Source: Oligoflexia bacterium (GTDB lineage Bacteria; Bdellovibrionota; UBA1018). Taken from it: a stretch of DNA of 64,000 nucleotides. How positions within the stretch are numbered: the stretch's first letter is position 1; each line of letters opens with the position of its first letter. The stretch spans positions 51,759 to 115,758 of the forward strand of contig CAIZRG010000049.1 in NCBI GenBank assembly GCA_903935335.1. The letters are read 5' to 3'. The notes beneath the pieces are model-generated. The model was given only the letters and a program-made list of their open reading frames with translations. It was not told the origin of the DNA and made no database searches. The position numbers and the translations under genes are program-made. Positions 60,769 through 61,602 of the stretch are shown piece by piece.

Positions 60769-61602
60769 TTAATTTTCCCCACTTTTGAGACTAATTTCGA
60801 GAAAAAAATCTCCTTTTTCAAGCTTAAAAGGGATAATAACAGATTTTTGCTGAACTTCAGAAAACAGTCTCATTTTTTCTCCATAAATCACTGAAGGAAT
60901 TGATTTTTCAATTTGAAATCCTTCTATTTCATTAAGCTCTGCTTTTGCAATTCCAAAAATCATGTTTAAGATCTCAGCGGCAGCATCGACCATTTCCTCA
61001 CTAAAAGTTTCAGCTGGTTCTCCAAACATACCCGAATAAACACTTAAAAAAGCAGAGGAGGAAAAGCATAATGCTATTGTTCCACAAAATGCTTTACTCA
61101 CTAAACTTAAGATTCCTACTACGTGCATATCTAAAACCGTAGTAACACTTTTCTGATAGGGTTTTCCAAGAACAGGCTTAAGATTGCACTGCATTTGAAG
61201 CACTTTTTCAGTCGCTTTAACAAATGGATCAACAAAAATAGCATAAATTTCTGCTTTATTTTGGCCCATTCCTGCAAATACTCTTGCTTCATGAATATTT
61301 TTACTCAAATTAACTTCTGATCCTTTGAGCGCAGCTTTTAAAAGAACTTCAATATTATTTGAAGCATTAATAATAGAGAAAAAACAGTTCTTTTTTATAA
61401 TTGCTGAATTTAGTAAAATAATTGAATTATAAATTTTTTCATTAATTGTAACAACTTCTTTGAAATCAAGCACGGTTAACATCTTAGGTTTTTCAATCAG
61501 ACCTAGTGCAATCTGCCTGAGATCTTCAGCATTCTTGGGGGCGACCACACTAGGACATTGAATAGAGAGATAATCTCCATTGTCTTTTACAAGCACGGCC
61601 AC
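60769..61602 (-). CDS. STAS (anti-sigma-factor-antagonist-like) domain fused to CheX-like domain
   Basis: N-terminal about 110 aa: LSIQCPSVVAPKNAEDLRQIALGLIEKPKMLTVLDFKEVVTINEKIYNSII is a SpoIIAA/STAS-like pattern. C-terminus VDPFVKATEKVLQMQCN...VGILSLVSKAFCGTIALCF...AAAEILNMIFGIAKAEL is CheX-like. Confidence 0.5.
   Translation of the reverse strand: MAVLVKDNGDYLSIQCPSVVAPKNAEDLRQIALGLIEKPKMLTVLDFKEVVTINEKIYNSIILLNSAIIKKNCFFSIINASNNIEVLLKAALKGSEVNLSKNIHEARVFAGMGQNKAEIYAIFVDPFVKATEKVLQMQCNLKPVLGKPYQKSVTTVLDMHVVGILSLVSKAFCGTIALCFSSSAFLSVYSGMFGEPAETFSEEMVDAAAEILNMIFGIAKAELNEIEGFQIEKSIPSVIYGEKMRLFSEVQQKSVIIPFKLEKGDFFLEISLKSGEN

What the first reader, a model, noticed from the sequence alone, without database searches (positions are those of the whole stretch)
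60769..61602. STAS-CheX fusion protein
The N-terminal region resembles an anti-sigma-factor-antagonist (SpoIIAA/STAS) fold. The C-terminal half resembles the CheY-P phosphatase CheX. This would be a fusion of partner-switching and chemotaxis-phosphatase modules. It suggests the phosphatase activity, or its localisation, is controlled by STAS phosphorylation or binding. This architecture is not a textbook one.
Basis: inference. Interest (0 to 1): 0.6.

Follow-up and report, generated by a model that had tools for sequence, protein, structure and literature searches.

The report
STAS–CheX phosphatase in Che cluster
The gene really does encode a CheX-type phosphatase for the chemotaxis regulator CheY with a STAS domain fused to its front; it belongs to an uncharacterised but recurrent family of predatory Bdellovibrio-like bacteria and sits in a chemosensory gene cluster next to a CheY and a cyclic-di-GMP-degrading enzyme.

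Summary
The ORF at 60769-61602 (minus strand, 277 aa) is real and has two domains. Residues 121-275 are a CheX phosphatase: Pfam E=1.4e-16, fold TM 0.90 to solved CheX, and an intact catalytic motif D206-x3-E210-x2-N213-x22-P236. Residues 1-112 are a divergent STAS domain. Pfam misses it in this single sequence, but family profiles hit solved anti-sigma antagonists (E=2e-5), and all 50 best fold matches of the model are STAS domains (TM about 0.78). The fusion is not a one-off: about 95 clusters were found, and every named one comes from a Bdellovibrionales MAG. Databases call them "CheX" or "hypothetical". In 14 of 16 loci a canonical CheY gene is adjacent. In 10 of 16 an HD-GYP phosphodiesterase with a pseudo-receiver follows. 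In this genome a CheA-CheW-CheY-CheR, CheB and globin-MCP cluster starts at the window edge. The canonical STAS phospho-serine is not conserved (Glu55 here), and no RsbW- or PP2C-type gene lies nearby. Classical phospho-dependent partner switching is therefore unlikely. The most likely role is a CheY-P phosphatase docked or gated through its STAS domain. It is a new, untested variant of a known kind and of moderate interest.

The parts
60769..61602 (-). STAS-CheX gene (277 aa; possibly 275 aa if translation starts at the second GTG, 61596)
   Evidence: ORF list. RBS AGGAG at 61606-61610. An identical protein is present in public assemblies.
61267..61602 (-). STAS domain, residues 1-112 (order beta-beta-alpha-beta-alpha-beta-alpha-beta-alpha)
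   Evidence: Family profile against PDB STAS proteins, E=2e-5. Pfam STAS or STAS_2 hits in homologues. AlphaFold model. The top 50 Foldseek matches are all STAS.
61438..61440 (-). Codon for Glu55, the residue aligned with the phospho-serine of SpoIIAA/TM1442-type STAS proteins
   Evidence: HMMER alignment to TM1442. Column tally over 97 family members: P21, S17, R13, Q11, K7, A7, E5.
60778..61242 (-). CheX phosphatase domain, residues 121-275
   Evidence: Pfam PF13690 E=1.4e-16. PDB CheX sequences E=1.4e-16. Foldseek TM 0.90 to 6vpw.
60895..60987 (-). Catalytic motif D206-AAA-E210-IL-N213-x22-P236
   Evidence: These residues are invariant in the 6- and 11-sequence family alignments. The published consensus is D/S-X3-E-X2-N-X21-P, with Glu and Asn inserted into the CheY active site (PMC12887009; PMC3035606).
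58974..59366 (+). CheY-like single-domain receiver (130 aa), the likely substrate
   Evidence: Pfam Response_reg E=4.8e-26. Best NCBIfam match is CheY, E=1.4e-38. The DD pair, SDWNMP, LTAE and Y..KPF are all present. Orthologues 51-61% identical lie next to STAS-CheX in other loci.
59368..60714 (-). HD-GYP phosphodiesterase (448 aa) with a pseudo-receiver N-domain, 54 bp downstream of STAS-CheX on the same strand
   Evidence: Pfam HD_5 E=1.6e-20 and HD. The HHERPSGSGYP motif is in the translation. The N-terminus matches receiver domains weakly, with Gly at the acceptor position. Residues about 127-202 match the Bd1817 N-domain (3tm8), E=1.6e-6. Orthologues are present in 10 of 16 loci.
58041..58952 (+). 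REC-CheX paralogue (303 aa), immediately upstream of the CheY gene
   Evidence: Pfam Response_reg E=1.5e-14 and CheX E=1.6e-15.
61696..63096 (+). Second HD-GYP protein (466 aa, HHE...GFP variant, weak receiver-like N-terminus). It is transcribed divergently from STAS-CheX and is the first gene of the CheA operon.
   Evidence: Pfam HD and HD_5, with Response_reg at E=0.14. Gene order in L012.
63154..64000 (+). N-terminus (Hpt domains) of a 1009-aa CheA-CheW-REC hybrid kinase that runs off the window. CheW, a CheY-like receiver, CheR, CheB and a globin-coupled MCP follow beyond the window.
   Evidence: Pfam Hpt E=3e-27. Full gene order on the 431-kb source contig, locus L012.

Best explanation
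The gene encodes a CheX-type CheY-P phosphatase with an N-terminal STAS domain that cannot be phosphorylated at the canonical site. It works inside a Che-type chemosensory pathway. A CheA hybrid kinase, whose gene begins at the window edge and is fed by a globin-coupled receptor, phosphorylates the neighbouring canonical CheY. The CheX domain then inserts Glu210 and Asn213 into the CheY active site and hydrolyses the acyl-phosphate, which ends the signal. The STAS domain is a phosphorylation-independent docking or gating module. It holds the phosphatase on a pathway partner, most likely CheA or the array (as the STAS-only protein CheS binds CheA in Sinorhizobium), or else the pseudo-receiver HD-GYP enzyme encoded in the same cassette. 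The cassette probably couples CheY phosphorylation to c-di-GMP hydrolysis. Shown here: the identity of both domains, the intact catalytic motif, the absence of a conserved phospho-serine, the conserved gene neighbourhood and the taxonomic restriction. Inferred: the substrate, the kinase, the STAS partner and the link to c-di-GMP.
For: The mechanism of the motif is described in PMC12887009 and PMC3035606. A canonical, phosphorylatable CheY is adjacent in 14 of 16 loci. It is usually immediately downstream, and in L018 it overlaps the STAS-CheX start by 4 bp. The HD-GYP orthologue is the third gene of the cassette in 10 of 16 loci, and none of 7 orthologues has an Asp at the receiver acceptor position. 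Che core genes flank the gene in this genome (L012) and in L002, L003 and L015. For a STAS protein acting in Che signal termination, the precedent is CheS, which binds CheA, raises its affinity for CheY1 about 100-fold and speeds dephosphorylation (PMC4214558; PMC12654446). The phospho-serine column is variable and no partner-switching enzymes lie nearby.
Against: No activity or interaction has been measured, so everything beyond domain identity is inference from homology and gene order. The relative orientation of the two domains in the model is uncertain (full-length pTM 0.61), so gating cannot be read from it. Two loci (L006, L016) carry the gene with no signalling neighbours, and 6 of 16 lack the HD-GYP, so neither candidate STAS partner is always encoded alongside. 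Relatedness of this STAS domain to CheS specifically was not tested because no CheS sequence was available. About 14 of 100 family members have lost E-x2-N, so parts of the family cannot be phosphatases. A kinase acting on another Ser or Thr and encoded elsewhere in the genome cannot be excluded.
Confidence: 0.6

Rival explanations
1. Classical partner switching. An RsbW/SpoIIAB-type kinase and a PP2C phosphatase phosphorylate and dephosphorylate the STAS domain, and this switches the CheX phosphatase or its binding partner on and off.
For: The fold and the profile matches are closest to the anti-sigma-factor antagonists SpoIIAA, TM1442, RsbS and RsbV. Ser occupies the canonical position in 17 of 97 members.
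Against: The canonical position is Glu55 in this protein and is highly variable in the family, with Pro the commonest residue. No HATPase_c_2/RsbW-like or SpoIIE/PP2C gene was found among the ORFs scanned across the 64-kb window, among the called genes 10 kb beyond it, or in any of the homologue loci inspected.
Confidence: 0.07
2. Adaptor rather than enzyme. The CheX domain serves mainly as a CheY-P-binding module, and the STAS domain binds the HD-GYP protein. The protein would then be a scaffold that brings CheY-P to the phosphodiesterase, or sequesters it, with hydrolysis of CheY-P secondary.
For: The three genes form a conserved cassette. The HD-GYP protein has only a pseudo-receiver, so it needs a regulator acting in trans. 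About 14 of 100 family members lack the catalytic E-x2-N yet keep the architecture. Non-catalytic members of the same fold, such as the FliM middle domain, appear among the fold matches.
Against: This protein and most of the family keep every residue of the catalytic consensus unchanged, which would not be expected without selection for catalysis. The gene also occurs with CheY but without HD-GYP.
Confidence: 0.15
3. The STAS domain senses a ligand. It binds a small molecule, as some STAS domains bind nucleotides or other ligands (my own knowledge, not checked here), and tunes phosphatase activity allosterically.
For: This would fit the loci where the gene has no signalling neighbours (L006, L016). 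The STAS fold is intact while the phospho-site is lost.
Against: No ligand-binding motif was identified. The residues conserved in the family (D46, F47, Y58, G92) are core positions of strand 3, helix 2 and helix 3, not an obvious pocket. No data here bear on binding.
Confidence: 0.12

Closest known systems
Stand-alone CheX phosphatases (Borrelia burgdorferi CheX, PDB 3HZH complex with CheY3; Thermotoga maritima CheX 1XKO/1SQU; Vibrio vulnificus CheX 6VPW)
   Same: It has the same fold (TM 0.76-0.90), passes the Pfam family above its cutoff, carries a single D/S-x3-E-x2-N-x21/22-P active site, and is encoded next to a CheY.
   Different: It carries an extra N-terminal STAS domain of about 112 residues. 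The loop after the catalytic helix is one residue longer (X22 rather than X21). The genomic partner is a CheY plus HD-GYP cassette and not a flagellar chemotaxis operon alone.
REC-CheX fusion proteins (one is in this window, 58041-58952)
   Same: The CheX domain sits at the C-terminus behind an N-terminal signalling domain of similar size, in the same gene cluster. The catalytic motif is intact.
   Different: The input domain there is a phosphorylatable receiver. Here it is a STAS domain with no conserved phospho-site, so any control must work through binding and not through His-Asp phosphotransfer.
CheS of Sinorhizobium meliloti / Agrobacterium fabrum (STAS-only protein in the che operon)
   Same: Both are STAS-fold modules encoded in a chemosensory cluster and linked to ending the CheY-P signal. 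CheS binds CheA, raises its affinity for CheY1 about 100-fold and speeds dephosphorylation (PMC4214558, PMC12654446).
   Different: [quoted passage not shown] Here the STAS domain is covalently joined to a phosphatase. Sequence relatedness to CheS was not tested, and binding to CheA is only a hypothesis.
Anti-sigma-factor antagonists SpoIIAA / RsbV / RsbS / TM1442
   Same: These are the best sequence-profile and fold matches for residues 1-112.
   Different: There is no conserved phospho-serine (Glu55 here), no cognate kinase, phosphatase or sigma-factor genes nearby, and the domain is fused to an enzyme.
Che-like pathways with a c-di-GMP output (for example Wsp of Pseudomonas, where a CheA-REC hybrid drives a REC-GGDEF cyclase; my own knowledge, not checked here)
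   Same: The CheA-REC hybrid kinase, CheW, CheR, CheB and MCP are encoded together with c-di-GMP enzymes.
   Different: The enzymes here are HD-GYP phosphodiesterases, which degrade c-di-GMP rather than make it. One has a pseudo-receiver, and the cluster carries two dedicated CheX-type phosphatases.

Membership tests
CheC/CheX/FliY phosphatase family, CheX class (Pfam PF13690) | Significant match to the family profile, above the curated cutoff | tested here: met
   60.7 bits against a cutoff of 27, E=1.4e-16, covering residues 162-260. Solved CheX sequences match at E=1.4e-16 over residues 124-272.
CheC/CheX/FliY phosphatase family, CheX class (Pfam PF13690) | Catalytic consensus D/S-X3-E-X2-N-X21-P on the long helix, with a single site as in CheX | tested here: met
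   The protein has D206-x3-E210-x2-N213-x22-P236, present once and invariant in the family alignments. The spacing is one residue longer than the published consensus. Both X21 and X22 occur in the family.
CheC/CheX/FliY phosphatase family, CheX class (Pfam PF13690) | CheX alpha/beta fold | tested here: met
   Foldseek gives TM (target-normalised) 0.83-0.90 and rmsd 1.8-2.7 A to 6vpw, 3hm4, 3h2d and 1squ.
CheC/CheX/FliY phosphatase family, CheX class (Pfam PF13690) | Homodimer through a shared beta-sheet | not testable with these tools
   Only a monomer was modelled. An invariant Gly (G241) follows the motif and may correspond to the turn-forming Gly described in PMC12887009, but this was not verified.
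CheC/CheX/FliY phosphatase family, CheX class (Pfam PF13690) | Accelerates CheY-P dephosphorylation | not testable with these tools
   This needs biochemistry. The supporting context is a canonical CheY gene adjacent in 14 of 16 loci (and the context look-ups).
STAS domain superfamily (Pfam PF01740 / PF13466; SpoIIAA-like fold) | Significant match of this sequence alone to a STAS profile | tested here: not met
   Residues 1-121 have no Pfam hit even at E<=10.
STAS domain superfamily (Pfam PF01740 / PF13466; SpoIIAA-like fold) | Homology detectable through intermediate sequences or a family profile | tested here: met
   The 11-sequence profile hits TM1442 at E=2e-5, and its seven best PDB hits are all STAS proteins. 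Of 11 homologues, 6 hit STAS_2 and 5 hit STAS. Of the 148 top N-domain relatives, 56 hit STAS and 33 hit STAS_2.
STAS domain superfamily (Pfam PF01740 / PF13466; SpoIIAA-like fold) | STAS fold | tested here: met
   The model has pLDDT 82.8 and the secondary-structure order b-b-a-b-a-b-a-b-a. All 50 Foldseek matches with E<0.001 are STAS domains, the best with TM 0.73-0.80.
Anti-sigma-factor antagonist / partner-switching module (SpoIIAA, RsbV type) | Conserved phosphorylatable Ser/Thr at the start of helix 2 (DSxG motif) | tested here: not met
   The aligned residues are Asn54-Glu55. Ser occupies this column in only 17 of 97 family members.
Anti-sigma-factor antagonist / partner-switching module (SpoIIAA, RsbV type) | Cognate RsbW/SpoIIAB kinase and/or PP2C phosphatase encoded nearby | tested here: not met
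   None was found among the window ORFs scanned (those of at least 150 aa plus the smaller intergenic ones), in the 10 kb beyond the window, or in the homologue loci. The rest of the genome was not searched.
CheS-like STAS proteins of che operons | STAS module encoded within a chemosensory gene cluster | tested here: met
   The gene is divergent from an HD-GYP-CheA-CheW-CheY-CheR operon in this genome and lies inside che operons in L002, L003 and L015.
CheS-like STAS proteins of che operons | Specific sequence relatedness to CheS, and binding to CheA | not tested

The most novel reading that the evidence does not exclude
STAS-CheX, the adjacent CheY and the pseudo-receiver HD-GYP enzyme form a self-contained three-protein output module specific to Bdellovibrionota. 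It would convert Che-kinase activity, here driven by a globin-coupled oxygen or gas sensor, into c-di-GMP degradation. The STAS domain would perform a phosphorylation-independent partner switch, binding or releasing the HD-GYP pseudo-receiver according to whether the fused CheX domain is occupied by CheY-P. This would be a degradative mirror image of the Wsp pathway and a new use of the STAS fold.
Probability: 0.2. Interest if true: 0.7.

Novelty: new variant of a known kind. Interest (0 to 1): 0.45.

Why it matters
CheY-P phosphatases set the time constant of chemotactic signalling, and where the phosphatase sits relative to the kinase shapes the response. A CheX permanently fused to a STAS domain offers a natural test of how STAS folds are reused outside sigma-factor control. 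It would be a one-protein counterpart of the CheS-plus-sink arrangement of rhizobia. Its conserved pairing with a CheY and a pseudo-receiver HD-GYP enzyme points to a direct wire from a chemosensory array to c-di-GMP turnover in predatory bacteria. According to my own knowledge, not checked here, c-di-GMP governs the choice between predation and motility in these bacteria. In practical terms, databases label these proteins plain "CheX" or "hypothetical", so the STAS half is being missed.

Tried and rejected
Several attempts led nowhere.
- Single-sequence Pfam and NCBIfam scans of the N-terminal half gave nothing.
- The word-indexed homologue search with the N-domain alignment returned no hits, and with the single protein only 6. 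The exhaustive HMMER search was needed to see the family.
- The exact-sequence look-up of the 275-aa version, P0001, was not on record. The 277-aa version worked.
- The afdb50 fold library was unavailable, so I could not ask whether AlphaFold DB or UniProt already holds the two-domain architecture.
- Literature searches for CheX with STAS, CheX with anti-sigma antagonist, and Bdellovibrio with CheX found no description of the fusion.
- The promoter and terminator scan of 57.9-63.3 kb was no better than shuffled sequence: 18 against 14.9 expected, and 4 against 3.5.
- Rfam found only tRNAs and no c-di-GMP riboswitch.
- P0072, a family member with a degenerate active site, sat on a 1-kb contig with no context.

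Considered and rejected:
- A chance ORF or a misassembled fusion. The same architecture recurs in about 95 clusters on independent contigs.
- A classical RsbV-type switch (see the rival explanations).
- Two top hits of the N-domain profile, P0008 and P0013, are repeat artefacts and not relatives.
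Full report
**1. The observation**

The window has an ORF at exactly 60769-61602 on the minus strand, 277 aa with a GTG start. An AGGAG ribosome-binding site lies 3 nt upstream of this GTG and 9 nt upstream of a second in-frame GTG at 61596. Public assemblies hold both a 277-aa and a 275-aa version of the identical protein. The difference has no bearing on the conclusions.

**2. C-terminal half: CheX**

Pfam CheX (PF13690) matches residues 162-260 at E=1.4e-16, with 60.7 bits against a cutoff of 27. phmmer against PDB sequences finds eight CheX or CheC-like structures: 3hm4 at E=1.4e-16, 6vpw at 2.3e-13, Borrelia 3hzh at 1.5e-6 and Thermotoga 1xko at 2e-4. These alignments cover residues 121-275.

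The full-length AlphaFold model has mean pLDDT 82.1. It superposes on solved CheX structures with target-normalised TM 0.83-0.90 and rmsd about 2 A.

[quoted passage not shown] The Glu and Asn lie one helical turn apart and insert into the CheY active site to position the attacking water (PMC12887009; PMC3035606). The protein has D206-AAA-E210-IL-N213-x22-P236. These residues are invariant in alignments of 6 and 11 family members. The one-residue difference in spacing comes from a loop insertion relative to 3hm4, and both spacings occur in the family.

**3. N-terminal half: STAS**

Residues 1-121 alone match nothing in Pfam or NCBIfam, even at E<=10. The homology shows up once relatives are used.
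- A 5-sequence profile hits the anti-sigma-factor antagonist TM1442 (1sbo) over its full length at E=4.2e-4.
- An 11-sequence profile raises this to E=2e-5. Its seven best PDB hits are all STAS proteins: TM1442, 4hyl, SpoIIAA (1th8, 1tid, 1auz), stressosome 7o0i and RsbV 6m36.
- Of the 11 N-domains, 6 hit Pfam STAS_2 and 5 hit Pfam STAS on their own, with best E-values of 2e-5 and 3.9e-5.
- An AlphaFold model of the N-domain alone (pLDDT 82.8, pTM 0.75) has the secondary-structure order beta-beta-alpha-beta-alpha-beta-alpha-beta-alpha.
- All 50 of that model's Foldseek matches with E<0.001 are STAS domains: 4xs5, SpoIIAA, TM1442, RsbS, RsbV, TM1081 and SLC26/SulP STAS. The best have TM 0.73-0.80 and rmsd about 2.2 A over 105-119 alignment columns.
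- No solved structure covers both halves of the protein.

**4. It is a family, not a singular fusion**

The word-indexed search with the single protein found only 6 relatives. An exhaustive HMMER search of 1.84 billion cluster representatives with the N-domain profile found 437 proteins at E<=0.001 and 69 at E<=1e-10.

Among the top 154 hits, about 100 are 255-300 aa long, and in the hit table the N-domain sits at the N-terminus of most of them. Of the 148 hits scanned against Pfam, 87 have a CheX hit, 56 a STAS hit and 33 a STAS_2 hit.

A profile of 11 full-length members recovers about 95 full-length clusters at 90% identity. Every member that carries an organism name comes from a Bdellovibrionales, Bdellovibrio sp. 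or Bdellovibrionaceae MAG. No cultured isolate was seen.

Sources name these proteins "chemotaxis protein CheX", "CheY-specific phosphatase CheX" or "hypothetical protein". Only one JGI entry reads "CheX/anti-anti-sigma regulatory factor". I found no paper that describes the fusion.

**5. The STAS domain is not a classical phospho-switch**

In the HMMER alignments to TM1442, the family's "vLDF....i..xxY" segment aligns with "VLDLSSVSYMDSAGL". This places Asn54-Glu55 of this protein opposite the Asp-Ser of the DSxG phosphorylation motif. That this Ser is the phosphorylated residue is my own knowledge.

Across 97 full-length members the column is Pro 21, Ser 17, Arg 13, Gln 11, Lys 7, Ala 7 and Glu 5. 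By contrast, D46, F47, Y58 and G92 are conserved.

I scanned all ORFs of at least 150 aa and the smaller intergenic ORFs across the whole 64-kb window, and found no RsbW/SpoIIAB-type kinase or SpoIIE/PP2C phosphatase. None appears among the called genes 10 kb beyond the window or in the homologue loci inspected.

**6. Context in this genome**

Within the window the order is:
- REC-CheX (58041-58952, plus strand)
- CheY (58974-59366, plus strand)
- HD-GYP, 448 aa (59368-60714, minus strand)
- STAS-CheX (60769-61602, minus strand)
- a second HD-GYP, 466 aa (61696-63096, plus strand)

The look-up of the exact protein returned the source contig of 431 kb as locus L012. It shows that the 466-aa HD-GYP gene is the first gene of an operon. 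That operon continues with a 1009-aa CheA (Hpt, H-kinase_dim, HATPase_c, CheW and a C-terminal receiver), then CheW, a 126-aa receiver and CheR. CheB and a globin-coupled MCP follow on the other strand.

The CheA N-terminus (Hpt, E=3e-27) is visible at 63154-64000 before the window ends. STAS-CheX is transcribed divergently from this operon. It lies 54 bp upstream of the 448-aa HD-GYP gene on the same strand.

**7. Conserved neighbourhood**

I pooled 16 distinct loci with usable flanks: window/L012, the P0002 contig, L001-L003, L005-L010 and L015-L019.
- **CheY-like receiver.** A single-domain receiver of about 130 aa is adjacent in 14 of 16 loci. In the MAG loci carrying the cassette it is 51-61% identical to the window's CheY. 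In L018 it overlaps the STAS-CheX start by 4 bp.
- **HD-GYP.** An orthologous HD-GYP gene of about 450 aa completes a three-gene cassette, STAS-CheX then CheY then HD-GYP, in 10 of 16 loci.
- **Che core genes.** These are present in 4 of 16 loci. In L015 the cassette ends a CheA-CheW-MCP-CheR-CheB operon. In L002 and L003 the order is CheB-CheY-CheR-STAS-CheX-CheY.
- **Orphans.** Two loci (L006, L016) have the gene alone.

The CheY orthologues keep the acidic pair (DD), the SDWNMP acceptor motif, LTAE and Y..KPF, so they are canonical phosphorylatable CheYs.

The cassette's HD-GYP protein has an intact HHE...GYP motif. Its N-terminal 125 residues match receiver domains only weakly (E about 5e-3), and none of seven orthologues has an Asp at the acceptor column; the window protein has Gly there. 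Residues about 127-202 match the N-terminal domain of the Bdellovibrio HD-GYP protein Bd1817 (3tm8, E=1.6e-6). It is therefore a pseudo-receiver enzyme that cannot be phosphorylated at the usual site.

**8. Most likely mechanism**

Shown here: the two domains, the intact catalytic site, the lost phospho-site and the neighbourhood.

Inferred: CheA phosphorylates the adjacent CheY, and the CheX domain hydrolyses CheY-P through Glu210 and Asn213, as in the Borrelia CheX-CheY3 complex. The STAS domain acts by binding and not by being phosphorylated.

Two partners seem most plausible.
- **CheA or the receptor array.** The STAS-only protein CheS of Sinorhizobium is encoded in the che operon. It binds CheA, raises CheA's affinity for CheY1 about 100-fold and speeds signal termination (PMC4214558; PMC12654446; both cite Dogra et al. 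2012). A STAS-CheX fusion would combine such docking with a true phosphatase. This would be analogous to the recruitment of CheZ to CheA-short in E. coli, which I state from my own knowledge.
- **The pseudo-receiver HD-GYP enzyme of the cassette.** In this case the module would couple CheY phosphorylation to c-di-GMP hydrolysis.

I cannot separate these two with the tools available. The full-length model has pTM 0.61, so the relative orientation of the domains is not informative.

My rough weights for the role of the STAS domain are:
- docking to CheA or the array: 0.35
- docking to the HD-GYP enzyme: 0.25
- ligand sensing or other: 0.2
- structural or dimerisation only: 0.13
- phospho-switch: 0.07

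**9. Comparison and novelty**

The C-terminal domain passes every testable criterion for the CheX class. The N-terminal domain belongs to the STAS superfamily by profile and by fold. It fails two defining features of the anti-sigma-antagonist functional class: the conserved phospho-serine and cognate switch enzymes nearby. It works like, but has not been shown to be related to, CheS.

REC-CheX fusions are a known architecture, and one lies 2 kb away. STAS-CheX appears to be an uncharacterised variant confined, as far as names show, to Bdellovibrionota. I rate it a new variant of a known kind.

Domain shuffling among signalling modules is common, and both halves have precedents in chemotaxis, so a specialist would be interested but not astonished. 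The conserved cassette with a pseudo-receiver HD-GYP enzyme is the more intriguing lead.

**10. Caveats**

Everything functional here is inference. About 14 of 100 family members have lost E-x2-N, so the family is functionally heterogeneous. E-values from the exhaustive search include repeat artefacts such as P0008 and P0013. The rest of the genome was not searched for partner-switching enzymes. The afdb50 library was unavailable.

Noticed in passing
window 56796-58001 (+): A 401-aa protein combines a hydrophobic N-terminus, a long beta-solenoid repeat region (weak YdcK, bactofilin and hexapeptide hits) and a C-terminal RING finger (zf-RING_5 E=8.7e-8; zf-C3HC4_3 E=5e-7). RING fingers are unusual in bacteria. 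The gene ends 40 bp before the REC-CheX gene.
   Followed up: partly
window 58041-58952 (+): A second CheX-type protein lies in the same cluster. It is a REC-CheX fusion (303 aa) with an intact D-x3-E-x2-N motif, 22 bp upstream of the CheY gene. The cluster therefore carries two differently regulated CheX phosphatases.
   Followed up: partly
window 59368-60714 (-), and orthologues in L001, L007, L008, L009, L015, L017: The HD-GYP enzyme has an N-terminal pseudo-receiver, with no Asp at the acceptor column in 7 of 7 orthologues. Its middle segment is homologous to the N-domain of Bdellovibrio Bd1817 (PDB 3tm8, E=1.6e-6).
   Followed up: partly
window 61696-63096 (+): The second HD-GYP protein (466 aa) reads HHERRNKKGFP, so it has GFP in place of GYP. 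It has only a very weak receiver-like N-terminus (Pfam E=0.14) and is the first gene of the CheA operon.
   Followed up: no
L012 631-2631 (same genome, about 7 kb beyond the window's right end): A globin-coupled chemoreceptor (Globin plus MCPsignal, 666 aa) lies next to CheB in the same cluster. This suggests the pathway senses oxygen or another gas.
   Followed up: no
window 53657-54073 (+): A small PilZ-domain protein (138 aa, 28.1 bits against a cutoff of 22.5) is a candidate c-di-GMP receptor. It lies about 4 kb from the HD-GYP/CheX cluster, just after a GYF_2-domain protein at 52146-53642.
   Followed up: partly
L011 2593-3597: A Bdellovibrionia MAG encodes a 334-aa protein made of two tandem CheX domains, each with a D-x3-E-x2-N motif. 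This is another unusual CheX architecture.
   Followed up: no
proteins P0048, P0056, P0072, P0084, P0101, P0112, P0151 (hits): About 14 of 100 full-length STAS-CheX-like proteins lack the catalytic E-x2-N motif while keeping the length and the N-domain. They are possible pseudo-phosphatases. The one context look-up tried (P0072) was on a 1-kb contig.
   Followed up: partly
proteins P0012 (710 aa) and P0025 (865 aa), hits: These long proteins carry three tandem canonical STAS domains (motif KYINSTGMG) separated by Pro/Ser-rich linkers, with a TPR-like C-terminal region. They scored well against the N-domain profile.
   Followed up: no
window 55818-55895 (+); 40182-40271 (-): The tRNA-Arg(ACG) at 55818-55895 is overlapped by a spurious 72-aa ORF at 55846-56064. 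ARAGORN calls a tRNA-Ser(CGA) at 40182-40271 that Rfam did not report at its gathering score; it overlaps the end of ORF 39753-40280.
   Followed up: no
window 23240-24076 (+) and 22184-22531 (+): A leucine-rich-repeat protein (278 aa; LRR_6 and LRR_8) and a small CopG/NikA-like ribbon-helix-helix protein lie in a region of lower gene density around 21-24 kb.
   Followed up: no
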